Positions 27,437 to 48,991 of DNA of 63,519 bases, filler included, from Nitrospinae bacterium RIFCSPLOWO2_12_FULL_45_22 (GCA_001803565.1; 3 parts of 3 records of this genome joined end to end with filler, not necessarily neighbours in it). Notes: generated by a model.

Positions 27437-27467
27437 CTCTCCTTATGGTTCTCCATTAAGGGAAAAA

Positions 27468-29234: not shown

Positions 29235-29241
29235 AACCAAG

Positions 29242-30264: not shown

Positions 30265-31509
30265 TTACATACTACTAGTGACTAATGACGGATTTTCTAA
30301 GCCAAAGGTCTTATGGAGGGTCCTGACGGCCAGTTCAGTATATTTTGCCTCAATAACACAGGATATCTTGATCTCAGAGGTGCTTATCATCAGGATATTA
30401 ATATTTTCTGCAGCAAGGGCGCTGAACATCCGGGCAGCTACCCCAGAATGGCTCCGCATACCTACCCCTACTATGGAGACTTTAGCAATGTCGGTATCTA
30501 ATGCGACCTCTTCTTTTGCTCCGATTCCCTTAGCCACTTCTTTAACCAGTTCTAATGCCTTTTTGGATTCAGTCCTGGGGAGGGTGAAAGAAATATCAGC
30601 TAATCCCTGGTCACTTACGTTCTGGATAATCATATCTATAACAATCTCTTTTTCCGCAATCCGGCTGAAGATATTCCCGGCAATACCAGGCCGATCTGGG
30701 ACACCAGAGATAGTGATCTTGGCCTGATTTTTGTCATGGGCTACTCCCGCTACCAGCACCTTCTCCATATCCCGGTCTTCTTCTACTACCATAGTCCCTT
30801 TACCCTCCTTCTCAAAGGTAGACTTTACTAACAAAGGCACTTGATATTTCTTGGCAAACTCTACTGATCTAGTCTGCAATACCTTGGCCCCTAAGCTGGC
30901 TAACTCCAGCATCTCTTCGTAAGAGATCTTATCCAGCCGCCGGGCATCAGCAACAATATTAGGGTCTGCGGTATAGACTCCATCTACATCGGTATAGATG
31001 ATGCACAGATCGGCATTCAGGGCTGCTGCCAGGGCAACTGCGGTAGTGTCTGATCCACCCCGACCCAGGGTAGTTACATCTTCTGCCTCATCTATCCCCT
31101 GGAATCCCGCTACTACTGCGATCTTTCCCTTCTCTATGGCAGTTTTAACGCGGTCGGCTGTGATCCGCTTTATGCGCGCTTTGGTATGGGCACTATCGGT
31201 AACAATACCTACCTGCCTGCCAGTAAATGCCTCTGCGTTATATCCTAATGCCTGTAAAGCCAGGGTCAATAAAGAACAAGATATCCGCTCACCCGAAGAG
31301 AGCAAGAGGTCTAGTTCCCGCTCCCTAGGAATATCACATATCTGGTGAGCTAAACCAATGAGCCGATCCGTCTCACCCGCCATAGCAGATACTACTACTA
31401 CCACCTCATCTCCAGCATTTTTAGCCTCAGCAATCTTCTCGGCCACTGCTTTAATCTTCGATATATCTCCTACTGATGTACCACCATACTTATGCACAAC
31501 CAGCGCCAT
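30265..31509 (-). CDS. lysC: Aspartate kinase
   Basis: [28 protein letters not shown], two ACT domains. Confidence 0.97.
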
Positions 31510-31643
31510 AAATTATCATCCCTCTCCTCTTTCTATTTTATAAAACTTCAATTAGTTCCCACTGAAAAAAACCAGCAAAGCAAGCTTTCACGCTACAATT
31601 TAAGGCATTAAAAAATTGCATATTAATTGTGACCACTACAGTT

Positions 31644-32864
31644 TTAAGCAGATTTGCTGTAAATAAAATAATCCATTAATTCATAGCCGTGGGGGAAATG
31701 GAGAGAGCCTTCGGTCAATAATGATTCATCAAACCTAGTGGTCCTATCAGCCTTGCCCTTAGGGGAGAAGATAGCAAAAGGGACGGCTCCGTGGGTATGG
31801 GTTTTAAGGGCCACCGGAGTAAGGTGGTCAGTGGTCAGTAAGATTTTATACTCATCAAATTCCTGCATAGCAGATAGGATCGGGCCGACTACTTTGCTAT
31901 CAAAATCCTCCAGGGCCTGGACTTTCTTTTTCCAGTTCCCTTCATGGCTCGCCTCATCTGGCGCCTCAACATGGAGGAAGACAAAATCTCTCGTTTTCAG
32001 GGCTTCTATGGCATATTGGGCCTTACCGCTATAGTTAGTATCCAGGTAGCCCGTTGCCCCGGGTACTTCTATAACATCTAATCCTAAATAAATCCCCAGT
32101 CCTTTTAGCAGGTCTACTGCCGATATTATAGCCCCGTTTAGATTATACTTCTCGTGAAACCGGGGCAATTTTGGTGGAGTACCCGCACCCCAAAACCAGA
32201 TATTATTAGCTGGCTTTAAGCCCCGCTCCACTCTCTGACGGTTAATAGGGTGGTTCGCGAGGATAGGCCTGGCATTCCCCATTAGTTGTAGTAACATATC
32301 CTGACCATTACCGCAAGGTAGATACTGGGCAATATCTTGCCCGGAAATATCGTGAGGGGGGACCAGGTTTAATTTCTTTAAGTTTATCACTGTTGCGCCA
32401 TCTTGCCAAATCAGTAGATTACGGTAGCTAGTCCCAGGATAAAACCGGCGGCCCTCGACAGCCAGGGTTCGGTTCAAATCCTCTATCAGGCCCCGGGCCT
32501 CCTGGCTAGTGATGTGTCCCGCACTAAAATCTGCCATGTTATAACTGGCACCATTAGGTTCTAAGGTAACTAGATTACAGCGGAAGGAAATATCATCCGG
32601 GCTCAGTTGTACTCCAATACTGGCGGCTTCTAAGGGGGATCGGCCAGTATAGTATAAGGCAGGATCATAGCCCAAAAGGCTCAGGTTAGCTACATCGCTA
32701 CCCGCGGGATAATTTTCCGGAATAGTATGGGTTGAGCCCGTAATACCCCTTCTGGCCAGATCATCCAGGAAAGGGGTAGAGGCTACTTCTAATGGCGTTT
32801 TACTCCCCAGGGCTGCTATGGGCCAGTCTGCCATCCCATCTCCCACTAAGACTAAGTACTTCAT
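31644..32864 (-). CDS. apgM: Cofactor-independent phosphoglycerate mutase ApgM family (proposed homoserine kinase)
   Basis: GDGMAD, GSDVAN, YTGRSPLEA, HVEAPDEASH, DH.TP...TH. Confidence 0.9.
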   Translation of the reverse strand: MKYLVLVGDGMADWPIAALGSKTPLEVASTPFLDDLARRGITGSTHTIPENYPAGSDVANLSLLGYDPALYYTGRSPLEAASIGVQLSPDDISFRCNLVTLEPNGASYNMADFSAGHITSQEARGLIEDLNRTLAVEGRRFYPGTSYRNLLIWQDGATVINLKKLNLVPPHDISGQDIAQYLPCGNGQDMLLQLMGNARPILANHPINRQRVERGLKPANNIWFWGAGTPPKLPRFHEKYNLNGAIISAVDLLKGLGIYLGLDVIEVPGATGYLDTNYSGKAQYAIEALKTRDFVFLHVEAPDEASHEGNWKKKVQALEDFDSKVVGPILSAMQEFDEYKILLTTDHLTPVALKTHTHGAVPFAIFSPKGKADRTTRFDESLLTEGSLHFPHGYELMDYFIYSKSA

Positions 32865-34195
32865 GAAATGTCTCTTTCTGCCCGAATAAGGGTGGTTCTG
32901 GCCAGGACTACTTCTAGTTGATCAATCTTTTTTAAGGCCAGTTGAATATCCTTTTCTAATGCCTCATGGGTCATCATAACTACTGGTACCCCTTCTTTTG
33001 GCTCACGATCTTTTTGCAGTACAGAGGCAATACTGATAGAATGATCCCCCAGGATGCCTGAAATACGAGCCAAAACCCCAGGCTGGTCTACTGCCATGAA
33101 CCGTAAATAATATTCTGACCTTATCTCTCCTATTTTTCTTATCGGGCAATCCGCTATCAGGGGGTTCAGAACCCCTAGAGCTGGTACTCTACCCCCTTGT
33201 CCCCGGAGGATATTCCTACTAACCTCAATAATATCCCCTACTACAGCGCTGCCGGTAGGCATAGCTCCGGCGCCCTCACCTACAAACATGTTCTTACCCA
33301 CAGCATCTCCCACAATATAGAGGGCATTCAAGATATTGTCAACATTGGCCAGGGGAGTTTCCTGGGGAAGTAGGGTAGGATGAACCCGAATATCAATCTC
33401 TTCTCCTACTCTTTTCGCAATGGCCAATAGTTTTATCCGGTAACCCAGATGCCGGGCATATTGAATATCCAGGGGGGATATTGCGGCAATGCCCTCAGTA
33501 TAGACTCTGCTCAGTGGAATATTAGCACCAAAGGCCAAAGAGGCTAGTATGGTTATTTTATGGGCAGAATCAATCCCCTCAATGTCTAATGAAGGGTCCT
33601 GCTCAGCATATCCTTTCCGCTGGGCCTCTTCCAATACCTGAGTAAAATCCCCTCCTTCATTGGTCATCTTACTCAGGATATAGTTAGCGGTACCGTTAAC
33701 TATACCATAGATAGCCTCAATATTGTTCGCCGCAAACCCTTCTCTGATAGCCCTAATAATGGGTATACCACCGCCGACACTGGCCTCAAACCCTACATCC
33801 AGCGAGGCATGGCTGGCCTTTTGGAAAATCTCGTGGCCATAATGGGCCAGGAGGGCTTTATTGGCAGTAACTACATGCTTCCCCTTATCCAGGGCCCTCA
33901 GGATAAAGGTTTTCGCTGGTTCTAATCCACCAATCAACTCTACGGCTATATCTATCTCGGGATCATCTATTACTTTATAGGCATCAGTAGTTAATAGATC
34001 CTTATTCAAGGAAGGTATCCCCCGATCGCTATCCAGGTCAAGGTCGGCAATCCTCTTTATCTCTAGTGGTACCCCCAGCCGCTTTTTTATGAGCTGGTTA
34101 TTCCGGGTAAGGATTTTATATGCCCCAGTACCTACTGTACCTAAGCCGATAATACCAATATATATAGGCCGGTTGAAGGTCTCTACCTGGTTCAT
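32861..34195 (-). CDS. hom: Homoserine dehydrogenase
   Basis: [32 protein letters not shown]-terminal ACT. Confidence 0.97.
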
Positions 34196-35367
34196 AAGGC
34201 CGCCTTAATACCTCTTATGGCCTGCCGGGTGCGATGTTCATTTTCTACCAAGGCAAACCTTACATAACCCTCTCCATTCTCACCAAAGCCTATTCCAGGA
34301 GAGACGGCTACCTTGGCTTCTTTCAATAAAAATTTAGCAAATTCTAATGAGCCCATTTTCTTGTATGGCGCCGGTATCTCAGCCCAAAGGAACATGGTAG
34401 CTTTGGGTTTCTCTACCGGCCAGCCTACCCGGTTCAATCCCTCTACTAAGACATCCCTCCGGGCCTGGTAGGTATTTCTTATTTCTTCTACCATTTCCCT
34501 GGGACTATTTAGGGCGATTATACTGGCTACCTGAATAGGCTGGAATATCCCATAGTCTAAATAGCTCTTAAGCCTCCTTAGGGCCGTGATTATCTGGCCA
34601 TTGCCCACAGCAAACCCTACCCGCCATCCCGGCATGTTATAACTCTTGGAGAGGGTAAAAAATTCTACCCCTACTTCTTTTGCCCCTTTAACTTCCAGCA
34701 TACTGGGGGCCTTATAGTTGTCAAATACTAAATCTGCATAGGCAAAGTCATGGATTACTATTATGCGGTTTTCCTGGGCAAAGGCGATGATCTTTTCAAA
34801 AAAATCCAGATCAACACATGTTGTAGTGGGATTATGGGGGAAGTTTAAGATTATGGCTTTAGGTCTAGGCCAAAGGGCCTTAAAAACTCGCAGCATATTC
34901 TCCAAAAAATCCTCACCCTGGTTCAGAGGCACTTGTACTACATCACCATTGGCTATAATGATCCCATACGTATGGATGGGGTAAGTAGGGGAGGGTACCA
35001 TTACCAGATCGCCAGGGCCAACCAGGGCGAGAGCCAAATGCGAGATACCTTCTTTAGAACCAATAGTCACAATAGCCTCGGTTTCCGGGTCGAGCTCCAC
35101 CTGGTAATTCCGCATATACCAATCAACAATGGCCTGGCGTAGCTTGCTGATACCACGCGAGGCAGAGTAGCGGTGGTTATGGGATTTCTGGGCAGCCTCA
35201 CAAATCTTAGCAATTATATGGGGTGGGGGGGGCTGGTCAGGATTGCCCATACCAAAATCTATTATATCATCCCCCCGTCTTCGAGCCTCTAGCTTTAATT
35301 CATCTATGATGCTGAAAATATAGGGTGGTAATCTTTTTATCCGGGGGAATTCCCAAAAACCTTCCAT
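34192..35367 (-). CDS. alaC: Class I PLP aminotransferase (AlaC / LL-DAP aminotransferase-like)
   Basis: [41 protein letters not shown]. Confidence 0.8.
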
Positions 35368-35448
35368 TATCCTCTCCTCTTAAAATTCGTAAAGAGTAAG
35401 GAGTGAGAGGGTAAGGAGAATTTTTTTACCCCTTACCCCTCACGCTTT

Positions 35449-36345
35449 TTATATACCTGCTTGTTCAAAAAGTTCAGGAAGCTCTCGCTCTAACCCAATA
35501 GGCATTATATGAAACCCGCTCACATAGCTCTTTATTTTTGCCATAAGCTCGGCTGCAATAGTGATTCCTTCTCTAACAGGGTCTTTAGCCTTATTAATCC
35601 GCTCAGCAACCGCCATTGGTATAGGCTTGACCAGTATCTTATGGTTCATAAACTCTACCATCCGGGCAGATTTCAAAGGAGTTATCCCGATAAGGAAGCG
35701 TACATTAAGACCAGAAGTCATTTCCAGGAACTTCTCTAGTGGTTCCTGGTCAAATATAGGCTGGGTTTGAATAAATTCTATTCCCGCAGCGACTTTTTTC
35801 CGCAGTTTTATCAATTGAGGCTCTAGGGGTTCAGCCAGGGGGTTAGCCACTGCCCCGATAACAAAGCTAGGGACACCGCTCAGTTTACGGCCAGCAAAAT
35901 CTTCTCCCCTCTCCAGTCCCCTGGCCAGGCTTATAAGCTGGACAGAGTCACAATCATAAACGGGCTTGCCGGTAGGGTGATCACCTAACAGGGGATGGTC
36001 CCCGGTCATAAAGCAAAAATTTTCTATCCCTAAGGCATATGCACTAAGGAGTTCTGATTGCAAGGCCAAGCGGTTTCGGTCTCGACAGGTCAACTGTAAG
36101 ATCGGCTCAAGGCCCCGCTCTTTTAAGAGATGACTAAGGGCTAACGGGCTCATTCGCATTATGGCCCGCTGATTATCGGTTACATTAAAAGCATCAACTT
36201 TCTCCCTTAGTAGATCGGCATGCAGGAGAATTTCTTCGGTGGCCGTACCTTTAGGTGGGGATAATTCTACTGTCACTATCAGATCTTTTTCTCTTAATTT
36301 ATTTCTGAATCGGCCTTTGGGGCCTTCTGGGTCGCCTACCGTCAC
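35449..36345 (-). CDS. metF: Methylenetetrahydrofolate reductase
   Basis: ELSPPKG, NVTDNQ, TCRDRNRLALQ, TGD, QTQ motifs. Confidence 0.92.
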   Translation of the reverse strand: MTVGDPEGPKGRFRNKLREKDLIVTVELSPPKGTATEEILLHADLLREKVDAFNVTDNQRAIMRMSPLALSHLLKERGLEPILQLTCRDRNRLALQSELLSAYALGIENFCFMTGDHPLLGDHPTGKPVYDCDSVQLISLARGLERGEDFAGRKLSGVPSFVIGAVANPLAEPLEPQLIKLRKKVAAGIEFIQTQPIFDQEPLEKFLEMTSGLNVRFLIGITPLKSARMVEFMNHKILVKPIPMAVAERINKAKDPVREGITIAAELMAKIKSYVSGFHIMPIGLERELPELFEQAGI

Positions 36346-37007
36346 TTCTTCTTGAGCATCTCCCTCCCTAAAGTGATCTTCTGGGGATGTTGGCCTTTAG
36401 AAAAGTCTTGAGGTTGATGGATCATTTCCATAAGGTACAATTTCCCTCTCTGCTTTAATCTTTCATAAATAAGATACCAACCGCAGTCCCGATCATCTAT
36501 TATTTCACACTTACCCTGCTTAGAACCACCGCAGGGGCCGTTAAGGAGCCCTTTGGAGCACTGATTTATAGCGCATATACCTCCGGTATACTCCAGGATA
36601 CACTGTCCACAGAGAGCGCAGAGCTCTTCATAATGGCCTACCCGCCTCAAAGAACCGATAAATAGGGTATCCAATGCCGGAAAGACAGGTTTTTCTGTTA
36701 GTTCCGCTACCGTTTGAACCCCTACTCCGCAGGACATTACCAATATAGCATCCGCTTCTTCTATAAAGGTGCTCTTCTTCGTTAACTCTTTCTTGGTTTT
36801 TTGGGTGGTACAGACCGATTCCAGGACGAAGGATAAGGGTACTGCCTTGCCCACTCCTTCTAGCTCCCGCTTCATATCCTGAACCTCTTCTTCTCCTCCG
36901 GCATGGCATTGGGTGGCACAGGTACCACACCCGATAATGACCACTACATCTGACCCGTCCAGGGATTGAAGAATATCAGGCAATAGTTTTTGCTGAGATA
37001 TGATCAT
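36342..37007 (-). CDS. metV: MTHFR Fe-S/Zn subunit MetV
   Basis: GCGTCATQC..GG, CGVGVQ, CALCGQC, CSKGLLNGPCGG, KCE..DCGW. Confidence 0.9.
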   Translation of the reverse strand: MIISQQKLLPDILQSLDGSDVVVIIGCGTCATQCHAGGEEEVQDMKRELEGVGKAVPLSFVLESVCTTQKTKKELTKKSTFIEEADAILVMSCGVGVQTVAELTEKPVFPALDTLFIGSLRRVGHYEELCALCGQCILEYTGGICAINQCSKGLLNGPCGGSKQGKCEIIDDRDCGWYLIYERLKQRGKLYLMEMIHQPQDFSKGQHPQKITLGREMLKKK

Positions 37008-37050
37008 TTGTTATCAGTTATTAGTTATAGGTTATAAGTTATAAGTTAAT

Positions 37051-37800
37051 TTAGTAGGCATATAGTCTACCATAGGGCCGGTGAGAGACAGGGACAAGTT
37101 TTATGAATGGACGGCTCATACTTTCATTATAATCCAAATTAAAATCCTCACAGTACTCCCGGAGCAAAGGTTCTATAAGTTTATGGTCTTGAGGGCCTAT
37201 TTCCTGGATACCTACTTCGGCGCCTAATTGATGCTTTTCTACCTTACCCCGGACAAATATCTGACCTCCGTGCATACCCGTGCCCAGATAATTACCTACT
37301 ATGGATTGATTATTTGGGCAGGTCAATCCTAAAAGGATCAATATCCCACCCGCCATATATTCTCCAAAGAAGTCCACGGCCTTACCTCCTACAATAATTA
37401 CCGGGACCTGGTCTTTATAGGACTTCATATGGATTCCTACCCGGTAGCCTACATTACCTTTTATAAATACTTTACCGCCCCGCATCCCGTAACCTATCAC
37501 ATCACCGGCATCACCATGGATAATCACCTTGCCATCATTCATGGTATTACCTACACCATCCTGGGCATTGGCGTTAACAATAACGGTGGGGCCGTCCATA
37601 AAGGCCGAGAGATCATTACCCGGGACACCGTCAATAATTATCATCACTTTTTGCTTTATGCCATCGGCTATATAGCGCTGTCCGTTTACCCCGATCAACT
37701 CTATCTCCTGTTCGCCAGCGGCTATAGCCTCTCTGATCATCCGGTTTAATTCCCGGTAATAGATACCACTAGCATTGATTTTCGCCCTGCCATTCTTCAT
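37051..37800 (-). CDS. Glutamate synthase GXGXG beta-helix subunit (GltB3-like)
   Basis: Repeated G..M.GG motifs (GNTMNDG, GYGMRGG, GEYMAGG, GTGMHGG). Confidence 0.9.
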   Translation of the reverse strand: MKNGRAKINASGIYYRELNRMIREAIAAGEQEIELIGVNGQRYIADGIKQKVMIIIDGVPGNDLSAFMDGPTVIVNANAQDGVGNTMNDGKVIIHGDAGDVIGYGMRGGKVFIKGNVGYRVGIHMKSYKDQVPVIIVGGKAVDFFGEYMAGGILILLGLTCPNNQSIVGNYLGTGMHGGQIFVRGKVEKHQLGAEVGIQEIGPQDHKLIEPLLREYCEDFNLDYNESMSRPFIKLVPVSHRPYGRLYAY

Positions 37801-37803
37801 TTT

Positions 37804-39396
37804 TTAACCTAATATCTTATCAACCTCTTCTTTATCAAGCTCGGATATATAGGGTATTCCTGATATAGCTGCCGCCTCTTGCGTAAGGGCAACTAGATCA
37901 TCCCGCTTAATATAAGCCGAAGCAAATTTTCTGGCACCACACATAAACTGCTGAAGACCTTGGGCCAGCCTCTGGAAATATGTATACACCCCAATAGCTG
38001 CCGGAGGAATCCTATTGAAATCCTTACCAAACCTCTTTTTTAGCTCTACACTGGTGATGAATATTTCATCTACATCCTTTCCATATTTCTCTAAGGAACT
38101 AGGTATGTTTTCATCGAAAATTAATCTACCCAAGGTTTTCCCCACCATAGCCGCAGCTATAGGGGCTCGGGCCATTCCTACCGCCTTGACAAAAGGTGCC
38201 CCCAGGGCCAAGGCCTTAAATATATGATCTTCTAAGGTAATCCCACCCGCTATCACTATATGAGGGACATATTTCCCTTTATCTGCCAATCTCTGGGCAT
38301 ATTGATAAGCCAGGCACTCGATTGCTACTGTAGGTATACCCCATTCATTCATCATTCTCCAGGGGCTCATTCCGGTCCCCCCACCAGCGCCATCTATTGT
38401 CAAGACATCTATCCTCGCATCGGAGGAATATTTGATGGCCCTCGCCAAATCTACCGGGCGATAAGCCCCGGTCTTCAGGGAGATAAATTTAGCCCCGAGG
38501 CTCCTAAGCTCCTCTACCCTTTTAGAGAAATCCTCTTCATTAACCATTCCGACACGAGAATGCCTCTCAAATTCCTTAAAGGTCCCCTTCTGAAAAGCAT
38601 CTAGCACTTCTGGGTCGTCTGGGTCAGGAAATACTATATAACCACGAGATTTTAGTAGTTGGGCCTTTTTAGGGTCCGAAATTTTTACCTCCCCGCCAAT
38701 AGTCTTTGCCCCCTGCCCCCATTTAAGCTCTACTGCCTCAACTCCAAGCTGCTCTATGGCATACTCTTGCACCCTCATTCTACTATCTTCTACATTGGAT
38801 TGTACTACTATAGCCCCATAACCGTCCTGCCATTCTTGATATTGCCTGACCCTTCTTTCCAGGTCGGGTGATTGGACAACCCTACCATTCTTTATTTTAG
38901 CCTCTTCGTCCATTCCACAGACATTTTCGCCTATAGTCAAAATTATACCAGAAACAGCCGCCCCTATGGCTAGCCCTTCCCAATTTCTCTTAGCCACATC
39001 AGTGGACCCTAATCCTGGGATTAGGATAGGGAGTTTGCATTTAATACCCCTCTTTTGACCGAGGGAGACCTCCAGTTTTACCTTAGGGAAAATAGCCTGG
39101 TCGCTATCAGCCTCTACCCCTTCGGCCCCAACCGTGGTTCCTAGGATATTGAAATGCGAATAATCAATAGGGTAATCCTTCTGTGCCCCAGAAGTGGTTG
39201 GTCCAAAGGGTTGCGGGTAGATTATTTCCGCACCTCGATAAGCAGACCTGCCGATCTCACAGAGGCCTATACACCCCTCTATACAGGTCACGCACATACC
39301 ACTAAAAGGAGAAACCTCTCTGTCGGTCCTTAGTTTTGTCATGGTAGCGGCTGATGAATTTGGCTTAGATAACGTCATTGCTTCCTCCTTTCCCAA
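37804..39396 (-). CDS. FMN-binding glutamate synthase family protein (second FMN subunit)
   Basis: ELKWGQGAK..GGE, DGAGGGTG, KALALGA; N-terminal CVTCIEGCIGLC. Confidence 0.88.
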   Translation of the reverse strand: MGKEEAMTLSKPNSSAATMTKLRTDREVSPFSGMCVTCIEGCIGLCEIGRSAYRGAEIIYPQPFGPTTSGAQKDYPIDYSHFNILGTTVGAEGVEADSDQAIFPKVKLEVSLGQKRGIKCKLPILIPGLGSTDVAKRNWEGLAIGAAVSGIILTIGENVCGMDEEAKIKNGRVVQSPDLERRVRQYQEWQDGYGAIVVQSNVEDSRMRVQEYAIEQLGVEAVELKWGQGAKTIGGEVKISDPKKAQLLKSRGYIVFPDPDDPEVLDAFQKGTFKEFERHSRVGMVNEEDFSKRVEELRSLGAKFISLKTGAYRPVDLARAIKYSSDARIDVLTIDGAGGGTGMSPWRMMNEWGIPTVAIECLAYQYAQRLADKGKYVPHIVIAGGITLEDHIFKALALGAPFVKAVGMARAPIAAAMVGKTLGRLIFDENIPSSLEKYGKDVDEIFITSVELKKRFGKDFNRIPPAAIGVYTYFQRLAQGLQQFMCGARKFASAYIKRDDLVALTQEAAAISGIPYISELDKEEVDKILG

Positions 39397-39434
39397 AGGG
39401 TTTTAATCCCAATTTGGGTGGGAAAACTAAATCT

Positions 39435-40940
39435 TTAACGGCCTGCTGGTTTAATACCCATGATATCTAAGGTTAGGGCATCCAGCCCAATACCCCGCAG
39501 TCTCTCCCTGCTGCCCCGGAGACTCTCAATAGCATTTACCCCTAGAGAACCCAGGATTTCTTTAAGCTCTGAGCTCCAGGCATGTAATAAATTCACCAGG
39601 CGCTGGGCCGCTACTTCAGGGTCAAGTCGTCGGGTCAATTCTGGCCGCTGGGTAGCTATACCCCAGGCACAATTGCCGGTATAGCATTTCTGACACACCC
39701 GGCAGCCCATAGCAATTAGTGCCCCAGTACCAATAGCAACGGCATCTGCACCTAAGGCGATGGCCTTTGCTACATCGGCACTGGACCTTATGCTGCCCGC
39801 AGCTATTATCGAGGCCTGGTTACGGATCCCTTCCTGCCGCAGACGGTCATCTACCGCAGCTAGAGCCAACTCAATCGGTATCCCTACATGGTCCCGGATA
39901 ATAGTAGGTGATGCCCCGGTACCTCCCCGGAAGCCATCCAGGTAGAGAATATCTGCCCCAGCCCGTACTATGCCACTGGCAATAGCGGCTACATTATGTA
40001 CAGCAGCAATCTTTACTGATACAGGTTTATAATCAATAGCCTCTTTAATGGCATAGATAAGCTGCCGCAAATCTTCTATAGAATAGATATCATGATGTGG
40101 TGCCGGAGATAAGGCATCTGTCCCCCGAGGGATCATCCGGGTCTTAGATATCTCTTCCCCAATCTTCTCACCCGGCAAATGGCCACCAATACCGGGCTTA
40201 GCCCCTTGCCCGATCTTGATCTCTACCCCTACACCGGCATTGAGATATTCGGCATGGACCCCGAAGCGACCCGAGGCGCACTGGACAATGATATGATCTT
40301 TGTAGGGATACAAGTCTCGATGGAGGCCACCTTCGCCAGTCTCTAGCACGGTGCCAAATTCTGCGGCAGCTATAGCCATGGCCTTGTGGGCATTGAAACT
40401 CAATGCACCATAAGACATGGGGGCAAAGATAATAGGGGTTTCTATCGCTATCTGGGGAGGCATCTTGGTCTTAAGCCGCAATGTGCCATCTGCCCCGGTG
40501 TCAAATTCTAAGAAATCCGGTTTACTGCCCAGAAAGGTCTTGAGCTCCATAGGTTCTCGCAAGGGGTCAATAGATGGGTTAGTAACCTGGCAGGCATCTA
40601 AGACCAAACAATCCCAGATGATAGGATAAGGCAACTCATTGCCCATACCCGTCAAGAGGACACCGCCCGTCTCGGCCTGTTTCCAGATATTCTTACGCAA
40701 TTGGGGCGACCAGTTATGGCTATATTTGAACCCTAAAGGATTAGCCTCTACGGAGATAGCCCCTTCAGGACAGAAGGTAAGGCAGCGATGGCAGGCCACG
40801 CATTGTTCGTGGAGAGGGGTTACCCGATCTTTAAACTCCAAGGCCCCGAAGCTACAATTTAGTAAACACCGCTTGCAGCGCCGGCACTTTTCGTGATCTA
40901 CTTCTACAATAAATTCTGCTGGGATATAGCTCCGTACCAA
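39435..40940 (-). CDS. Glutamate synthase FMN subunit with N-terminal ferredoxin (GltB2-like)
   Basis: PMSYGALS, TGEGG, QCASGRFG, EIKIGQGAKPGIGGHLPG, SPAPHHDIYSIEDL, 3Fe-4S GCRVCQKCYTGNC. Confidence 0.93.
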   Translation of the reverse strand: MVRSYIPAEFIVEVDHEKCRRCKRCLLNCSFGALEFKDRVTPLHEQCVACHRCLTFCPEGAISVEANPLGFKYSHNWSPQLRKNIWKQAETGGVLLTGMGNELPYPIIWDCLVLDACQVTNPSIDPLREPMELKTFLGSKPDFLEFDTGADGTLRLKTKMPPQIAIETPIIFAPMSYGALSFNAHKAMAIAAAEFGTVLETGEGGLHRDLYPYKDHIIVQCASGRFGVHAEYLNAGVGVEIKIGQGAKPGIGGHLPGEKIGEEISKTRMIPRGTDALSPAPHHDIYSIEDLRQLIYAIKEAIDYKPVSVKIAAVHNVAAIASGIVRAGADILYLDGFRGGTGASPTIIRDHVGIPIELALAAVDDRLRQEGIRNQASIIAAGSIRSSADVAKAIALGADAVAIGTGALIAMGCRVCQKCYTGNCAWGIATQRPELTRRLDPEVAAQRLVNLLHAWSSELKEILGSLGVNAIESLRGSRERLRGIGLDALTLDIMGIKPAGR

Positions 40941-40953
40941 TCTTTCTCGCCTC

Positions 40954-42123
40954 CTACAATCTCAGAGATGCCCCTTCAGAGATAGACGCTAACTCCGCTG
41001 TTATTCCCGTTCCTTCCTCTTCCAGCCAGGCTATAACTGGGTAGCCGGCCCGGGGAGACCATACCCGCTCTGGGTTAGAGCAAATCTCTCTTATAGCCGA
41101 TTCTTCACTAGCCATATAAAGGAGGGGACCCTTTTCAGCCGCAACTAATGGCCTTAATTTAATCCTATCATTGAGACCTACCAATCCTTTACTATGGGCA
41201 AAGAGGATAGCAAACGGGCCATTAACCAGGGCACTACCATACACCATCCGCAGGCTCTTAAGGGCCATCTTCTCCTCCTCGGGTAATCGCTCGATATCCT
41301 TCCAAAAAGGTGCTGCCAGGGCCATACATGCTGTTTCTATTGATAGATGGTGCTTCCTTATAAGTAAATCAAAGAGATAGGCCATGACCTCGGTATCGGT
41401 CATTAATGTACAGCGGTAGCCAAACATCTCTAGATATCTTTTATTAATACCATAGGAAGATATTTCACCATTATGGACAATAGACCAGTCCAGCAGAGTG
41501 AAGGGATGAGCCCCGCCCCACCAGCCCGGGGTATTAGTAGGAAACCGATTATGCCCGGTCCAGATATAGGCTTCATATTCATTAATCCCGTAAAACTCGG
41601 CAATATCCTTCGGAAAACCAACCCCTTTGAAGGCCCCCATATTCTTCCCGCTAGAAAATACATAGGCACCATTCTCTTCCACGTTTATCTTCATTACTGT
41701 CCGAACCACAAAGTCATCATCGGAGAGCTCGGCCACTTCCCTATCAGGCCGGTCCTTTTTCGGCCTAACAAAATAGCGCCGCAGCCGGGGGTGAAAGACA
41801 ATCGAGCTCACATGATAATGAGGTATCCGCTCTATCTTGGCAACTTCATAATTCTCTCTAATAAATCTTTCCACGCCTTCTATATCAGCCCTTTCGCCAT
41901 ACATGATATGGAAGGCATAGTAGTCCTTATATTCCGGATAGATACCATAGGCAGCAAAACCTGACCCTAGCCCATTACCCCGGTCATTCATCAGATTTAT
42001 AGATTTGACTATCTCTGAACCTGGAATAAGCTTTCTCTGGCGATGGATTATCCCCGCAAGGCCACAACCACTAATGTCTTTTTGATAGTTATAATCTGGT
42101 CTCGGATTATTTTTTAGCCACAA
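40954..42123 (-). CDS. Class II glutamine amidotransferase subunit (GltB1-like)
   Basis: SGCG nucleophile region, DRGNGLG, HNRFPTN, HPF, VHNGEI, TDTEV, DRIKLRP. Confidence 0.92.
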   Translation of the reverse strand: MWLKNNPRPDYNYQKDISGCGLAGIIHRQRKLIPGSEIVKSINLMNDRGNGLGSGFAAYGIYPEYKDYYAFHIMYGERADIEGVERFIRENYEVAKIERIPHYHVSSIVFHPRLRRYFVRPKKDRPDREVAELSDDDFVVRTVMKINVEENGAYVFSSGKNMGAFKGVGFPKDIAEFYGINEYEAYIWTGHNRFPTNTPGWWGGAHPFTLLDWSIVHNGEISSYGINKRYLEMFGYRCTLMTDTEVMAYLFDLLIRKHHLSIETACMALAAPFWKDIERLPEEEKMALKSLRMVYGSALVNGPFAILFAHSKGLVGLNDRIKLRPLVAAEKGPLLYMASEESAIREICSNPERVWSPRAGYPVIAWLEEEGTGITAELASISEGASLRL

Positions 42124-43429
42124 TCTTTTTCCACTCCTTTACCCCACTTGCTGGTGGTTCTGGTAGATTTAGTTTTTTCCGCTGGGTCTTTTGTGGTTCG
42201 CCTAGCTTACCACTCTTCTCAAAAGTCTCGATGGCCTGCTTGACCGTAGCGGGTATTAAACCCTTAGTCATAGCCATACCTTTCAAGGTAGTGAAGACGG
42301 TTTCCATACCGTATCTTTGGGGGCATAGCTCATAGCAGGTATGACACTCCAGACAGTGCCATATATCCTGCCGGTTTAAGAGTTCTTCTACCTTTCCTTC
42401 TAGTATCTTTTCCATGATTTGATCGGGCTGGAAATCAGGAAAATTCAAGCAACCAGGGCAATCATCCAGGCAGGCCCGGCATTGATAACAACGCTCCAGG
42501 GACTCTAAATCAAACCCCTCCTCAATCTTCTTTATTCTTTCCGACTGAGCATGGCGGCGCTCGTAAAAAGGTTGTGTATCTATCCTATGGAAGGCAAGGC
42601 CGATCTCATCCGGCATGATACCGTATGCCAGGCAGACCAGCTCGGGATAAAAGAATATTGGTATAGCCATATCCTCGCCCTGGCGTTGCATCATGTACTG
42701 CTTATTATCGAATTGCATAAAGCAGGCAGGGCACATAACCACGAGAGCATCTATATCCAGGCTTTTTATCTCCAGGAGTTTTTCCCGGGCCATAATTAAT
42801 GCCTCTTCCATACTGCCAACATTGCTATACTCACCACCGCAGCATTGCATCTTCCTGGGATATTCGATACTCCTCGCCCCCAGCGCTGTTACCAGGGCAT
42901 CGAACTTTTGCGGCAAGAGGGGGTCGTCAAACTGGATGGCATAGCTGGGCCGGATCATGTGGCAGCCATAATGTACCGCTATCTGCATCCCTGATAAAGG
43001 CTCAATGATACCTTCCTTTAGTTTAGCCAGGCCTATCTTGTCATGAAGATATTCTGCCAGGTGCATTACCGTAATCCGGCCTTGATACTCTAACCCATAG
43101 GTTTCCAATTTCCGATTTATTTCATCCTTAAGAGAAAGATTTAAAATTAGAGATGTCTTTACCGTCTTCAAGGTGCTATAGCAGCCATTACAAGGCTCAA
43201 TGAGCACTTCTACTCCAGCATCTTCGGCTACAGCCAGGTTCCTGGCTGCAGTCAGGTACCATACCTTTGGGTCCAGGTTTTTGACCAGGGCCTTTTCCGG
43301 GCAGCAAGTAAACCCTGGAATATCTTCTACTTTAATGCCCAGTTGCTTCATGAGGAGCCGGACTGACTTCTCCATAAAGGGGAATCGAGCCGGTATTTGA
43401 CAACCCCAGAAAAAAGTCACTGATTCCAT
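42107..43429 (-). CDS. Heterodisulfide reductase-like HdrB-HdrC fusion
   Basis: Two CCG domains (FTCCP..PCNGC; HYGCH..CCGG..CPAC) followed by 2x[4Fe-4S] CYQCRACLDDCP / CLECHTCYELCP. Confidence 0.9.
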   Translation of the reverse strand: MESVTFFWGCQIPARFPFMEKSVRLLMKQLGIKVEDIPGFTCCPEKALVKNLDPKVWYLTAARNLAVAEDAGVEVLIEPCNGCYSTLKTVKTSLILNLSLKDEINRKLETYGLEYQGRITVMHLAEYLHDKIGLAKLKEGIIEPLSGMQIAVHYGCHMIRPSYAIQFDDPLLPQKFDALVTALGARSIEYPRKMQCCGGEYSNVGSMEEALIMAREKLLEIKSLDIDALVVMCPACFMQFDNKQYMMQRQGEDMAIPIFFYPELVCLAYGIMPDEIGLAFHRIDTQPFYERRHAQSERIKKIEEGFDLESLERCYQCRACLDDCPGCLNFPDFQPDQIMEKILEGKVEELLNRQDIWHCLECHTCYELCPQRYGMETVFTTLKGMAMTKGLIPATVKQAIETFEKSGKLGEPQKTQRKKLNLPEPPASGVKEWKKIVAKK

Positions 43430-43469
43430 AATGCGTTATTTATATTCGTGATATAATTAAGTAGTATTT

Positions 43470-43604
43470 AGGACGCAGATTCACGCAGATAACTCTTTTT
43501 ATGAGTTGTGTGTTGCAGAGTTTAGTCCATAATCTGCTACGCATGATCCATAACTCGATAGCAGAGGAATTTATAATCTTAAAAATCTGCCGTCATCTGC
43601 GTCC
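43470..43604. repeat. Nested palindromic repeat in the 5' leader of the hdrBC operon
   Basis: GGACGCAGATTCACGCAGAT...ATCTGCCGTCATCTGCGTCC enclosing a GAGTTG..TAACTC palindrome. Confidence 0.8.
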
Positions 43605-43681
43605 AAAAAGGAAATTGCTATGCTATTAAATTACACTTTGCTTTGTTCCGTAGGAATTTGGCAACAGAGCCCAAACTTTCA

Positions 43682-43709
43682 ATTATATTAATCAAAACCT
43701 GATTGTCAA
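43682..43709 (-). promoter_or_regulatory. Consensus sigma70 promoter for hdrBC-glt-metVF operon
   Basis: Minus strand TTGACA-N16-TATAAT; overlapping palindrome AATCA-N5-TGATT. Confidence 0.75.
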
Positions 43710-43755
43710 CTGCTTTCTGCCAAATTTGTTGAAGGGAACAAAAATTTTTTATGTT

Positions 43756-44211
43756 ATGACTCAGAAGACGGTTTGTCAAAATCGGAAGGCCTGGCATGAC
43801 TATGAGGTACAGGACACTTACGAAGCAGGGCTGGTGTTGCAGGGCAGCGAAGTAAAGTCCCTTCGTGAGGGTTGGGGGAACCTGAGAGATAGCTATGCTA
43901 GACTAAAGGGTGGTGAAGTCTATCTGTATAATTTCCATATCAGCCCCTATCCCCAGGCCGGTCAATTCAACCATGATCCCCTACGGCCCCGAAAGCTCTT
44001 GCTACACAAACGAGAGATCAAGAAACTTGTGGGAAAAACCACTGAGAAAGGTCTTACGCTAGTACCTTTAAGGGTATATTTTTCTCGGGGTCTGGCTAAG
44101 GTAGAGCTGGCCTTAGCCAAGGGTAAAAAAGTTTATGATAAGCGTGAAGAACTAAAACGCCGTTCAGCCAAAATGGAGTTAGAAAGAAGTCTCCGGGAAA
44201 AGCAAAAATAG
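43756..44211 (+). CDS. smpB: SsrA-binding protein
   Basis: [42 protein letters not shown]. Confidence 0.98.
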
Positions 44212-44212
44212 T

Positions 44213-44241
44213 TTGCTAAACAAAGGAAAGAGTGTTAAACT
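44213..44241 (+). promoter_or_regulatory. tmRNA promoter
   Basis: TTGCTA-N17-TAAACT with TG extension. Confidence 0.6.
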
Positions 44242-44260
44242 ATTATTTAGTCTGCATTCT

Positions 44261-44625
44261 GGGGGCGAAATGGGTTCGACGGGGATAGTTGAGGCTGAGG
44301 TGGCATGCCGAGGTCCCGTTAGCTCGTAAAACAAATGGGAAATAAAATAAACGCAAACTCTTATGAGTATGCCTTAGCTGCTTAATCGCAGCTAACGTCC
44401 TCTCAACTCTCGCCCGTGGGGTTGAGAAGGGCGCCGACTAGCGGGCCTGGTTCCTTTCTTTTTGCCTGGAGGAGAAAGGGATAAGAACTAATCCGGGCTA
44501 GCACCTTAAATCCATCCCTGTCTGTGGGGATCGGAGGGTGTGAAGAGCTTAAACACAGAATAAGCATGTAGAGGCCTCGAGCCAAAGGTTTCCGGACGCG
44601 GGTTCGATTCCCGCCGCCTCCACCA
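44261..44625 (+). ncRNA. ssrA: tmRNA, tag peptide (A)ANSYEYALAA
   Basis: GGGGGCG...GGTTCGAC 5' end, GGTTCGATTCCCGCCGCCTCCACCA 3' end, tag ORF 44353-44385, downstream of smpB. Confidence 0.97.
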
Positions 44626-44667: not shown

Positions 44668-44764
44668 TAACTGTTTCAGCCACGAAGGAGCACTAAAAAA
44701 AGAATAAGAGAAGCGGTATATTCTAACTTCTCCATGTCTCTGTGCCTCTGTGGTGAACGATTAC
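44668..44764. repeat. Palindromic intergenic repeat (GTAAC..TTCAGCCAC family)
   Basis: GTAACTGTTTCAGCCAC...GTGGTGAACGATTAC arms. Confidence 0.65.
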
Positions 44765-45432
44765 ATAGTGGGTATACGGGTCAATTCCCCGGTCAAAGTA
44801 TCTAGCAGATAATATTCTTGCTTGAATTCGGCCAGGGAGATGACCCGTACCTCATGGTTATAAATTATTTCCTTATAGAGATGGGTATGACCACAAAACA
44901 TAAACTGTGGCTCTATCTCATCTAATAACCACCGCAAGGGCTTATCACCCATATCCTGCCCTCGCCACTCAAAACCCAAGCCCCAGGGGCAGCCGTGAGC
45001 CAGAAAAATATCCAGCCCTTTCAAGCCACGACAGGCCTCCAGGTCTTCTTTTACAAAGTATCCCTTCTGCCATTCTTCCGTGAGCTGATCCTTGAGGAGG
45101 GGGTAGAGAAAAGGGTCATAAGCCCCATTGAGGCCCGACAGCCTTATCATCTCGCTCCCTTTCTGAAAAGTGAGGATCTCGCCGGTCTTAATAGGGATGA
45201 GGTTATTCAGGCTACCCTCTCCTCTTTCGATTTTCTGGATCACTGCCACAGAATCATTATTTCCATAGATCCAATGTATAGGTTGAGCATGGGAGGTGTA
45301 ATAACACATATCCCCTACCTGGAGGATAATGTCTACTTCGAGGGAGCCAACTACCTCATGAAAGACCTGGATAGCAGAAGAGCGGCCATGCTCGAAAAAA
45401 CCGTGAATATCACCAAATAGGGCGATTATCAT
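44761..45432 (-). CDS. Calcineurin-like metallophosphoesterase
   Basis: GDIHG, QVGD, GNND, AHG, GHTH motifs. Confidence 0.9.
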   Translation of the reverse strand: MIIALFGDIHGFFEHGRSSAIQVFHEVVGSLEVDIILQVGDMCYYTSHAQPIHWIYGNNDSVAVIQKIERGEGSLNNLIPIKTGEILTFQKGSEMIRLSGLNGAYDPFLYPLLKDQLTEEWQKGYFVKEDLEACRGLKGLDIFLAHGCPWGLGFEWRGQDMGDKPLRWLLDEIEPQFMFCGHTHLYKEIIYNHEVRVISLAEFKQEYYLLDTLTGELTRIPTM

Positions 45433-47837: not shown

Positions 47838-47859
47838 ACCTCCTACCCAAGTTGTTAAA

Positions 47860-48642: not shown

Positions 48643-48891
48643 AACACTTCCCCCTTACAATTTATTTTTCTCTTAGCATATTTCATTCCTTTTGTTCCGT
48701 CAATATCCAAAAACAATCCTGCCCTGGTAACAGTTTACAGGGCTCAGGGATCAGTTGTCAGACAGGCTTTTCCTCAAAAACATCTCCGGGGCTATGAATC
48801 GTTTGCCCAATCTCCAAATAACGATCACCATTTTAGCCATCCTTCAAAAGTAGTTAACAGTTTGACAAAAGGAAAATAGTTTTTTAACCCT

Positions 48892-48991
48892 NNNNNNNNN
48901 NNNNNNNNNNNNNNNNNNNNNNNNNNNNNNNNNNNTTAATTAATTAANNNNNNNNNNNNNNNNNNNNNNNNNNNNNNNNNNNNNNNNNNNN
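48892..48991. other. Artificial contig linker
   Basis: N-run + TTAATTAATTAA + N-run. Confidence 0.95.

What the first reader, a model, noticed from the sequence alone, without database searches (positions are those of the whole stretch)
35449..43429. HdrB-HdrC fusion + split glutamate synthase + MetVF in one operon: candidate new redox/C1-N complex
Seen: seven tightly packed genes (overlaps or gaps under 45 bp) behind a consensus promoter, with no GltD, HdrA or MvhD. Known: MetVF associates with Hdr subunits in some acetogens (Moorella); three-subunit GltB homologues also act as N-methylglutamate synthase (MgsABC). Inference: either HdrBC couples a thiol/disulfide pool to both glutamate synthase and MTHFR, or this is an anaerobic methylamine/C1-to-folate pathway. 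I know no characterised system with this composition.
Basis: partly seen in the sequence, partly recalled or inferred. Interest (0 to 1): 0.75.

Follow-up and report, generated by a model that had tools for sequence, protein, structure and literature searches.

The report
Glutamate synthase with Hdr-type electron subunit
The operon is real, but its conserved core is a four-part glutamate synthase whose extra subunit is a fused heterodisulfide-reductase B/C protein, probably a thiol-driven electron inlet for nitrogen assimilation, while the folate reductase genes are a local add-on.

Summary
The seven co-directional genes, their spacing and the perfect sigma-70 promoter are confirmed. The conserved unit is HdrB-HdrC fusion + GltB1 + GltB2 + GltB3. 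All four lie on one strand in 62 of 80 related loci from Methanoperedens, ANME-2, Nitrospirota, Bacillota, Coriobacteriia and others. In an even sample of 201 Bacillota genomes, 9 of 9 fusions lie within 11 kb of gltB2.

MetV/MetF accompany it in 0 of 80 loci. In four checked genomes they lie elsewhere; a fifth gave no MetV match. Shared HdrBC-GOGAT-MTHFR chemistry and a methylamine route are therefore not supported.

In a Bacillota clade the fusion sits beside a true dihydrolipoyl dehydrogenase, LipB, LipA and a 76-aa free lipoyl-domain protein. In ANME-2 it sits beside a lipoate-protein ligase.

Best reading: HdrBC is the fourth, electron-input subunit of split GOGAT and oxidises a dithiol. 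That dithiol is a lipoyl protein in Bacillota and unknown in this window.

The fifth gene, a 524-aa FMN protein, belongs to nitrogen-assimilation clusters. Eight literature searches found no description of this arrangement. Binding and activity are untested.

The parts
43682..43709 (-). sigma-70-type promoter, TTGACA-16-TATAAT
   Evidence: 12 of 12 consensus matches, the best of 34 sites in the region scanned. Function not shown.
43430..43681 (-). about 250-nt leader, non-coding, with a long-range helix GGACGCAGAU...AUCUGCGUCC
   Evidence: Sequence read. No Rfam match even at E <= 1. MFE -55.8 kcal/mol, z -2.16. Any regulatory role is unproven.
42107..43429 (-). HdrB-HdrC fusion (440 aa): two CCG domains, then 2x[4Fe-4S]; proposed electron-input subunit
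   Evidence: Pfam CCG 5.9e-29 and Fer4_8. phmmer to solved HdrB 7.9e-63 over residues 3-291 and to HdrC 7e-14 over 308-399. Model pLDDT 86.2, TM 0.90-0.92 to HdrB chains and 0.58-0.65 to HdrC chains. Nine CCG-motif Cys invariant and the tenth (C10) nearly so, with 8 invariant HdrC Cys, in 18 homologues; all 18 Cys invariant in a second set of 16.
40954..42123 (-). GltB1, Ntn glutamine amidotransferase subunit with a short propeptide
   Evidence: PF00310 2.3e-12. Invariant S18-G19-C20 in 9 of 9 aligned sequences. 52-72% identical to the gene next to HdrBC in related loci.
39435..40940 (-). GltB2, FMN synthase subunit with an N-terminal 2x[4Fe-4S] domain and a C-terminal 4-Cys cluster
   Evidence: PF01645 1.3e-139. 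2e-66 to Fd-GOGAT 1llw and 5.8e-65 to NADPH-GOGAT large chains. 63-77% identity across all related loci.
37804..39396 (-). GSX530: FMN-binding glutamate-synthase-family protein (probable start at 39378, 524 aa), function unknown, member of nitrogen-assimilation clusters
   Evidence: PF01645 8.2e-18, no NCBIfam hit. 65-74% identical homologues in many phyla. Generic FMN TIM-barrel fold. Next to GlnA-like genes in 11 and ANTAR genes in 14 of 20 Bacillota loci.
37051..37800 (-). GltB3, GXGXG subunit
   Evidence: PF01493 1.6e-32. 48-67% identity in related loci.
36342..37007 (-). MetV, Fe-S subunit of MetFV-type MTHFR
   Evidence: PF12225 7.8e-34. NGPCGG motif in the translation, named as the MetV hallmark in PMC8515935 section 13.
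35449..36345 (-). MetF, flavin subunit of MTHFR, overlapping metV by 4 nt
   Evidence: PF02219 6.6e-34. 8.5e-75 to the MTHFR half of NF006396.
35403..35443 (-). 15-bp hairpin just after the metF stop, a likely terminator or stabiliser that ends the seven-gene unit
   Evidence: The 88-nt fold gives -34.2 kcal/mol, z -5.0, with 0 of 200 shuffles as stable. The tail is pyrimidine-rich and not a clean U-tract.
30265..35367 (-). downstream co-directional context: aminotransferase, homoserine dehydrogenase, ApgM-like protein, aspartate kinase
   Evidence: Pfam and NCBIfam. The aminotransferase scores 644.4 bits against the 647 cut-off for alanine transaminase NF006033.

Best explanation
The window encodes a four-subunit glutamate synthase. 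GltB1 is the glutaminase, GltB2 is the Fe-S/FMN synthase and GltB3 is the GXGXG subunit. The fourth subunit is an HdrB-HdrC fusion, which acts as the electron inlet.

In this model the HdrB part oxidises a dithiol at its two non-cubane [4Fe-4S] sites. Electrons then pass singly through the two HdrC clusters and the two clusters of the GltB2 N-terminal domain to the FMN, which reduces 2-iminoglutarate to glutamate.

In a Bacillota clade the dithiol is most likely a small lipoylated carrier protein, kept reduced by a dedicated dihydrolipoyl dehydrogenase using NAD(P)H. In Methanoperedens and ANME-2 it could be a GcvH-like lipoyl protein or HS-CoM + HS-CoB. In the window's own lineage the donor is unknown.

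MetV-MetF is a self-contained 2S-type methylene-THF reductase that this lineage has placed at the end of the operon, next to aspartate-family genes, probably for methionine supply. GSX530 is a separate FMN enzyme of the nitrogen regulon.

Shown: the gene identities, the conservation and the neighbourhoods. Inferred: the physical complex, the direction of electron flow and the donor.
For: HdrBC identity:
- The fusion is a genuine HdrB + HdrC by sequence, invariant cysteines and fold.

Conservation of the core:
- 363 of 387 pattern-matched stretches in genome contigs encode a relative.
- Among the best 80 loci, all four genes lie on one strand in 62.
- GltB1 lies within 1.5 kb downstream of HdrBC in 66 of the 72 loci that have room.

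Independent sample:
- Of 201 Bacillota genomes, 67 have GltB2 and 9 have the fusion. All 9 fusions sit on the GltB2 contig within 11 kb.
- Those 9 are among the 11 GltB2 proteins most like the window's, at 70-76% identity.
- In the GltB2 tree, linked forms cluster: 4 label changes against a shuffled mean of 13.8, with 0 of 500 shuffles as low.

Nitrogen context (80 loci):
- GlnA in 22 and an ANTAR regulator in 12.
- The clustered GltB2 is the only strong PF01645 hit in 3 of 5 genomes.

Dithiol link (80 loci):
- Lpd in 10, at 503-570 bits against the TIGR01350 cut-off of 408.8.
- A free lipoyl domain with an invariant Lys in 9, LipA in 4, LipB in 2 and LplA in 10 ANME-2 loci.

Precedents:
- Thiol:fumarate reductase uses HS-CoM/HS-CoB through an Hdr-like domain for an anabolic reduction (PMC8764690, passage).
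- sHdr works with lipoate-binding proteins and E3; lipoamide E0' is -0.29 V (PMC6067878, passages).
- The F420-dependent GOGAT of Methanothermobacter has a fourth, FrhB-like subunit (PMC3087415, passage).

MetVF:
- 0 of 80 loci carry it. MetFV alone is an active ferredoxin-dependent enzyme (PMC8515935, abstract).
- D. copahuensis keeps a separate MetFV-MvhD-HdrA cluster on another contig.
Against: - No protein-protein or enzymatic evidence exists. No structure or model of the assembled subunits could be obtained.
- No HdrBC-GltB fusion protein was found among longer proteins (weak evidence).
- 58 of 67 Bacillota genomes with GltB2 lack the fusion. GOGAT therefore does not need it, and GltB2's own ferredoxin-like domain could take electrons directly from ferredoxin.
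- The lipoyl and Lpd genes are confined to one Bacillota clade, and LplA to ANME-2. None lies in the 63.5-kb window. The window's fusion groups weakly (support 80-88) with lineages that lack such neighbours.
- The fusion scores below the NCBIfam equivalog cut-offs for HdrB (271.5 against 345.15) and HdrC (58.3 against 160), so its substrate may differ.
- In three Bacillota loci Lpd directly precedes HdrBC with no carrier gene found.
- metV follows gltB3 after 43 nt with no terminator between them. Co-transcription, and a lineage-specific functional tie to MetVF, cannot be excluded.
Confidence: 0.6

Rival explanations
1. One supercomplex: HdrBC feeds or links both glutamate synthase and MetVF. 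A thiol/disulfide pool would then drive nitrogen assimilation and methylene-THF reduction together in this lineage.
For: The seven genes are tightly packed behind one consensus promoter and end in one strong hairpin. MetV carries Fe-S clusters able to accept electrons from an Fe-S chain. Moorella-type MTHFR does use HdrABC-MvhD (PMC8515935, section 13). The arrangement is stable in an independent sample.
Against: MetV/MetF appear in 0 of 80 related loci, 52 of which have at least 2 kb beyond the last core gene. MetVF lies elsewhere in the four of five checked genomes that gave a MetV match. HdrA and MvhD, which the Moorella enzyme needs, are absent from the window. D. copahuensis has the Moorella-type cluster and the HdrBC-Glt cluster as separate units.
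Confidence: 0.1
2. HdrBC is not the electron donor module. It is a redox-sensing or regulatory subunit, or an alternative electron outlet, and reduced ferredoxin feeds GltB2 directly.
For: GltB2 has its own 2x[4Fe-4S] domain, with 8 invariant Cys. Most split GOGATs in the Bacillota sample (58 of 67) work without the fusion. The split GOGAT of C. thermocellum is thought to be ferredoxin-linked (PMC9888227, passages).
Against: All cluster-binding cysteines of a catalytic HdrB/HdrC are invariant. A dedicated Lpd, lipoyl carrier and lipoylation genes in the same operons point to real dithiol turnover. HdrBC-linked GltB2 proteins form a distinct sequence group.
Confidence: 0.2
3. The GltB-like genes encode an N-methylglutamate synthase (MgsABC-like) in an anaerobic methylamine-to-folate pathway that ends in MetVF.
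For: The three-subunit GltB-like architecture resembles MgsABC (recalled, not tested here). A folate enzyme lies in the same operon.
Against: The window holds no GmaS or NMG-dehydrogenase-like genes. The neighbours in relatives are GlnA and nitrogen regulators. GltB2 matches true GOGAT synthase domains at 2e-66 and is the only such protein in 3 of 5 genomes. GltB1 keeps the glutaminase Cys. MetVF is not conserved with the cluster.
Confidence: 0.03

Closest known systems
Split (archaeal-type) glutamate synthase GltB1/GltB2/GltB3, including the F420-dependent form with a fourth FrhB-like subunit (Methanothermobacter MTH193; PMC3087415, passage)
   Same: It has the same three catalytic or structural subunits. 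It shares the principle that a separate fourth protein supplies electrons.
   Different: The fourth subunit here is an HdrB-HdrC fusion with non-cubane-cluster motifs rather than an F420-binding FrhB homologue or GltD. The donor would be a dithiol.
Thiol:fumarate reductase TfrAB of Methanothermobacter (PMC8764690, passage; original papers not read)
   Same: An Hdr-like CCG/Fe-S module oxidises thiols to drive an anabolic reduction. TfrB is a weak NCBIfam hit of the fusion (1.3e-19).
   Different: The acceptor enzyme is a flavoprotein fumarate reductase and not GOGAT. The domain order differs, and it is restricted to methanogens.
sHdr-LbpA sulfur-oxidising system (PMC6067878, passages)
   Same: HdrB/HdrC-type proteins are genetically tied to lipoate-binding proteins, dedicated lipoylation enzymes and, in archaea, a dihydrolipoamide dehydrogenase.
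   Different: sHdr has HdrA and sulfur transferases and oxidises sulfur, with electrons proposed to flow to lipoamide and NAD+. Here there is no HdrA. The carrier in Bacillota is an E2-type lipoyl domain rather than GcvH-like, and flow is proposed in the opposite direction, into GOGAT.
Moorella thermoacetica 6S-type MTHFR, HdrABC-MvhD-MetFV (PMC8515935, section 13)
   Same: Hdr-type subunits and MetFV are encoded together.
   Different: It needs HdrA (the NADH site) and MvhD, both absent here. Its HdrB and HdrC are separate proteins. The linkage of the fusion with MetFV is not conserved.
2S-type MetFV MTHFR of Clostridium ljungdahlii (PMC8515935, abstract and section 13)
   Same: metV lies upstream of and overlaps metF. 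The NGPCGG motif and two-subunit composition match.
   Different: Its genomic context is Wood-Ljungdahl genes there, and a GOGAT operon plus aspartate-family genes here. The donor was not tested.
N-methylglutamate synthase MgsABC
   Same: Three GltB-like subunits (recalled).
   Different: There are no partner genes of that pathway. The Fe-S-rich GltB2, the glutaminase Cys and the nitrogen-assimilation neighbours all point to GOGAT.

Membership tests
Split glutamine-dependent glutamate synthase (GltB1/2/3) | Ntn amidotransferase subunit with catalytic Cys | tested here: met
   PF00310 2.3e-12. S-G-C20 is invariant in 9 of 9 sequences, preceded by a short propeptide.
Split glutamine-dependent glutamate synthase (GltB1/2/3) | FMN synthase domain with an Fe-S cluster | tested here: met
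   PF01645 1.3e-139. 2e-66 and 5.8e-65 to solved GOGAT large chains. C413, C416, C419 and C424 are invariant.
Split glutamine-dependent glutamate synthase (GltB1/2/3) | GXGXG subunit | tested here: met
   PF01493 1.6e-32, above the 32.5-bit cut-off at 113 bits.
Split glutamine-dependent glutamate synthase (GltB1/2/3) | Glutamate formation from Gln + 2-oxoglutarate | not testable with these tools
   Needs an enzyme assay.
Heterodisulfide reductase HdrB/HdrC | Two CCG motifs (10 Cys) and two CX2CX2CX3C motifs | tested here: met
   In 18 sequences, C42, 43, 80, 83, 156, 196, 197, 233, 236 and C314, 317, 320, 324, 359, 362, 365, 369 are invariant and C10 is at least 90% conserved. All are invariant in 16 sequences.
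Heterodisulfide reductase HdrB/HdrC | HdrB and HdrC folds | tested here: met
   TM 0.90-0.92, rmsd 2.1-2.4 A, to six HdrB chains. TM 0.58-0.65 to HdrC chains. Model pLDDT 86.2.
Heterodisulfide reductase HdrB/HdrC | Score above the curated equivalog cut-off | tested here: not met
   TIGR03288 scores 271.5 against 345.15. TIGR03290 scores 58.3 against 160.
Heterodisulfide reductase HdrB/HdrC | Partner HdrA (or HdrE) and CoM-S-S-CoB as substrate | tested here: not met
   The window has no HdrA or MvhD, and neither is a recurrent core neighbour. The substrate itself is not testable here.
6S-type MTHFR (HdrABC-MvhD-MetFV) | HdrA and MvhD encoded with MetFV; conserved linkage | tested here: not met
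   Absent from the window. MetV/MetF in 0 of 80 loci.
2S-type MetFV MTHFR | metV upstream of and overlapping metF; MetV NGPCGG motif; PF12225 + PF02219 | tested here: met
   4-nt overlap. The motif is in the translation. Pfam 7.8e-34 and 6.6e-34.
2S-type MetFV MTHFR | Reduced ferredoxin as donor | not testable with these tools
   Known only for characterised members (PMC8515935, abstract).
N-methylglutamate synthase MgsABC | Co-occurrence with GmaS and NMG dehydrogenase genes | tested here: not met
   No such genes among the window ORFs. Neighbours in relatives are GlnA, ANTAR, Lpd and lipoyl genes.
N-methylglutamate synthase MgsABC | Family-specific sequence model | not tested
   No Mgs model appeared among the NCBIfam or Pfam hits. 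I did not verify that the libraries hold one.
Hdr-like system with lipoate-binding protein | HdrB-type protein encoded with a lipoyl carrier and lipoylation enzymes | tested here: inconclusive
   Met in relatives: carrier in 9, Lpd in 10, LipA in 4, LipB in 2 and LplA in 10 of 80 loci. Not met in the window's 63.5 kb. The rest of its genome is not held.

The most novel reading that the evidence does not exclude
A dithiol-driven glutamate synthase. An HdrB-HdrC fusion is the electron-input subunit of split GOGAT in hundreds of anaerobic species, including Methanoperedens, ANME-2 and Argoarchaeum. Protein-bound lipoamide, recharged by a dedicated E3 from NAD(P)H in Bacillota, would act as a soluble two-electron carrier into nitrogen assimilation. 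That would be a new physiological role for lipoate and for Hdr-type non-cubane clusters. In methane-oxidising archaea the same module could link glutamate synthesis to the CoM/CoB thiol pool. In the window's lineage it may also hand electrons to MetV.
Probability: 0.4. Interest if true: 0.85.

Novelty: new variant of a known kind. Interest (0 to 1): 0.7.

Why it matters
The electron donor of split (archaeal-type) glutamate synthase in anaerobes is an open question. In C. thermocellum, NAD(P)H-dependent activity was never measured, and ferredoxin dependence rests on annotation alone (PMC9888227, passages).

A conserved Hdr-type fourth subunit, with lipoyl-carrier and E3 genes beside it in one clade, gives a concrete and testable donor chain. 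If it holds, three things follow:
- It adds a third kind of electron inlet to GOGAT, beside GltD and FrhB-like subunits.
- It extends lipoate and HdrB chemistry from sulfur oxidation and methanogenesis to nitrogen assimilation.
- It bears on the energy budget of energy-limited organisms such as ANME, Methanoperedens and subsurface Nitrospirota and Bacillota.

It also warns against reading these clusters as Mgs (methylamine) genes or as catabolic Hdr.

Tried and rejected
- Complex prediction (HdrBC + GltB2 alignments) was not available, so no interface test was made.
- No whole genome is held for the window. The metagenome scan returned only a contig 100% identical to the window. Close relatives (76-88% identity) could therefore not be inspected for the metVF linkage.
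- Sequencing runs: no RNA holder listed. Two runs labelled metatranscriptomic but flagged as probably DNA gave four short contigs each, over gltB2, hdrBC and the leader including the promoter. This is not usable as expression evidence.
- Leader: no Rfam family at the gathering threshold or at E <= 1.
- Longer fused forms of HdrBC: none at E <= 1e-40 (weak evidence).
- GSX530: phmmer against PDB gave only de novo TIM barrels. The model (pLDDT 73.2, N-terminal 100 residues poor) matched generic FMN TIM-barrel oxidases, with GOGAT at rank 44. No function could be assigned.
- G005's phylum holds only 5 genomes. The best MetF identity there is 48%, so no closer organism was found.
- The careful tree search did not finish, so both trees are quick trees with SH-aLRT support only. 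One row (L049) was an over-long ORF artefact.
- Literature searches, plus the eight held supplement files of PMC9012536, gave no description of an HdrBC-fusion-GOGAT or lipoyl-GOGAT cluster. Subscription journals and unheld supplements were not seen.

Full report
**Observation.** The region holds seven minus-strand genes at exactly the reported coordinates, with spacings of -17, 13, 38, 3, 43 and -4 nt. A perfect TTGACA-16-TATAAT site lies at 43709-43682, about 250 nt upstream of the first start codon. A 15-bp hairpin follows the metF stop (88-nt fold -34.2 kcal/mol, z -5.0) before the next gene.

None of the window ORFs of 120 aa or more that were Pfam-scanned is an HdrA, MvhD or GltD homologue. 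Those calls left out four antisense shadow ORFs, a 433-aa ORF over the two tRNA genes and the cut ORF at the window's end. No whole genome is held for the window.

Contigs of an independent soil run, about 99.5% identical, bridge metF-metV-gltB3 and gltB3-to-promoter. The gene order is therefore real.

**Gene identities.**
- Gene 1 (440 aa) is an HdrB-HdrC fusion.
  - It has two CCG domains followed by a 4Fe-4S dicluster domain.
  - It matches solved HdrB chains at 7.9e-63 over residues 3-291 and HdrC at 7e-14 over 308-399.
  - Its cluster cysteines are invariant or nearly so in 18 and in 16 aligned homologues.
  - A model of pLDDT 86.2 superposes on HdrB chains at TM 0.90-0.92 and on HdrC chains at 0.58-0.65.
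  - It stays below the NCBIfam equivalog cut-offs, so it is a diverged member.
- Gene 2 is the Ntn amidotransferase GltB1, with an invariant Ser-Gly-Cys20 behind a short propeptide.
- Gene 3 is GltB2: a 2x[4Fe-4S] domain plus the FMN synthase domain, 2e-66 to ferredoxin-GOGAT.
- Gene 5 is the GXGXG subunit GltB3.
- Genes 6 and 7 are MetV, with its NGPCGG motif, and MetF.
- Gene 4, here called GSX530, is a weak PF01645 member with no NCBIfam hit.

**What is conserved.** An alignment-based scan of one genome per species found 363 relatives of the fusion, and the best 80 loci were kept. tblastn with the window's proteins gave the following:
- All four of HdrBC, GltB1, GltB2 and GltB3 lie on one strand in 62 of 80 loci.
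- GltB1 lies within 1.5 kb downstream of HdrBC in 66 of the 72 loci with room.
- The orders are HdrBC-B1-B2-B3 (52 loci), B3-HdrBC-B1-B2 (6) and B1-B2-B3-HdrBC (4). The remaining 18 loci showed only part of the set, many of them on short contigs.
- The hosts include Methanoperedens, ANME-2/Methanogaster, Argoarchaeum, Nitrospirota, Bacillota, Coriobacteriia, Schekmanbacteria, Sumerlaeota and Thermodesulfobacteriota.

ORF clustering found no other gene shared by more than 16 loci.

An independent even sample of 201 Bacillota genomes gave further support:
- GltB2 was found in 67 genomes and the fusion in 9.
- All 9 fusions lie on the GltB2 contig within 11 kb.
- These 9 are among the 11 GltB2 proteins most similar to the window's.

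In a quick GltB2 tree, all 20 linked sequences, archaeal ones included, lie in a group of 26 (support 90). Fourteen unlinked ones lie outside it. The tree needs 4 label changes against a shuffled mean of 13.8, and 0 of 500 shuffles were as low.

The clustered GltB2 is the only strong PF01645 protein in 3 of 5 genomes. GlnA lies in 22 and an ANTAR regulator in 12 of the 80 loci. This is a nitrogen-assimilation module.

**The dithiol lead.** Pfam and NCBIfam scans of neighbours and tblastn show that a Bacillota clade (SH-aLRT 95) carries several lipoate genes next to the fusion:
- A true dihydrolipoyl dehydrogenase in 10 of 80 loci. The three scanned score 503-570 bits against the 408.8 cut-off.
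- A free 76-85-aa lipoyl domain with an invariant Lys immediately upstream of HdrBC in 9 loci. In one of them it is fused to LipA.
- LipA in 4 loci and LipB in 2.

ANME-2 loci carry a lipoate-protein ligase right after gltB3 (10 loci). All five genomes checked, among them ANME-2 and Methanoperedens, encode GcvH-like proteins; of the 14 control genomes, 13 matched the family and M. acetivorans did not.

The genome of the closest relative of the window's cluster (L001) has a separate HdrA-MvhD-HdrC-HdrB-GcvH-like-LplA-radical-SAM cluster. None of these genes lies in the window. The window's fusion groups weakly with lineages that lack such neighbours.

**MetVF.**
- MetV/MetF were found in none of the 80 loci, 52 of which have at least 2 kb beyond the last core gene.
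- In four of five genomes MetV sits on another contig or more than 200 kb away; the fifth gave no match.
- Contexts differ between hosts. Methanoperedens has MetFV-FolP.
- D. copahuensis has a Moorella-type MetF-MetV-MvhD-HdrA cluster plus HdrC-HdrB-HdrA on a different contig from its HdrBC-Glt cluster.
- MetFV alone is an active, reduced-ferredoxin-dependent enzyme, and no published MTHFR type includes GOGAT genes (PMC8515935, abstract and section 13).
- In the window metVF is followed by an aminotransferase, homoserine dehydrogenase, an ApgM-like protein and aspartate kinase. An anabolic placement for methionine supply is the simplest reading. This is an inference.

**GSX530.** It belongs to a very large family of about 525 aa that is 65-74% identical across phyla.
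- It is single-copy in 54 of 201 Bacillota genomes.
- Of 20 such loci fetched, GlnA-like genes lie nearby in 11, ANTAR genes in 14, GltB subunits in 7 and Lpd + HdrBC in 3. In 5 loci none of the queries matched.
- It lies within the flanks of only 4 of the 80 HdrBC loci.
- Its model is a generic FMN TIM barrel.

It is a nitrogen-regulon enzyme of unknown reaction and not a core part of the module.

**Mechanism.** I propose that HdrBC is the fourth, electron-input subunit of this GOGAT. The HdrB sites oxidise a dithiol. Electrons run through the HdrC clusters and the GltB2 ferredoxin domain to the FMN.

Lipoamide has an E0' of -0.29 V (PMC6067878). I recall about -0.14 V for CoM-S-S-CoB. From recalled values, the glutamine-dependent amination of 2-oxoglutarate is more positive than either, so both donors are thermodynamically feasible.

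Three precedents exist:
- Thiol:fumarate reductase (PMC8764690).
- The sHdr-LbpA system (PMC6067878).
- The FrhB-like fourth subunit of F420-GOGAT (PMC3087415).

Against this model:
- Most Bacillota split GOGATs lack the fusion.
- GltB2 could take ferredoxin directly.
- No fusion proteins were found.
- The multimer prediction could not be run.

**Novelty.** Eight full-text searches and the supplement files held for one paper found no description of this cluster. The donor of split GOGAT is explicitly unresolved in C. thermocellum (PMC9888227). Papers outside the held library were not seen.

Noticed in passing
L011-L027 (ANME-2 loci), e.g. L011:6764-9247: Directly after gltB3 come a lipoate-protein ligase, then canonical hdrC and hdrB, and in six loci (L012, L013, L015, L016, L055, L067) a 763-aa HdrA-MvhD fusion, all on the same strand. 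The GOGAT module and a classical Hdr may be co-expressed there.
   Followed up: partly
L085 (G005:C8:21000-32000): The genome of the window cluster's closest relative has a cluster of a 1127-aa HdrA-like protein, MvhD, HdrC, HdrB, a GcvH-like protein, LplA and two radical-SAM proteins. This is another Hdr + lipoyl-carrier set, and it carries no sulfur transferases.
   Followed up: partly
L102-L121 (Bacillota): A recurrent triad of ANTAR regulator, GlnA-like paralogue (46-54% identical to GlnA queries) and GSX530 suggests an unrecognised nitrogen-regulated enzyme pair.
   Followed up: partly
G001:C4:258398-259033 (Methanoperedens MetV): The MetV match has one in-frame TGA. It could be selenocysteine, a sequencing error or a pseudogene.
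   Followed up: no
window 43726-44625: smpB (43726-44211, + strand) starts 17 nt from the -35 box of the divergent operon promoter and is followed by the tmRNA gene (44261-44625, 225.5 bits). The two promoters must share the short divergent region or the leader.
   Followed up: no
window 113-1358 and 21000-29300: A phage-type integrase sits beside two tRNA genes at the window's start. A low-GC stretch holds a DUF3854 protein and an int-alpA RNA match (27453-27523). These are probably mobile elements.
   Followed up: no
window 44761-53260: Upstream of the operon lie an 802-aa double family-III CoA-transferase, an enoyl-CoA hydratase and a 1438-aa BcrAD/BadFG-type activase with DUF2229. This looks like a 2-hydroxyacyl-CoA-dehydratase-style set.
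   Followed up: no
G166:C25:24860-26362: The GltB2 match lies in an 839-aa open frame, which may be a GltB1-GltB2 fusion next to the HdrBC fusion.
   Followed up: no
window 39398: The strain in run X2 lacks one base here, in the spacer just upstream of the annotated GSX530 start. The protein atlas holds the protein from residue 7, so the true start is probably 39378.
   Followed up: partly
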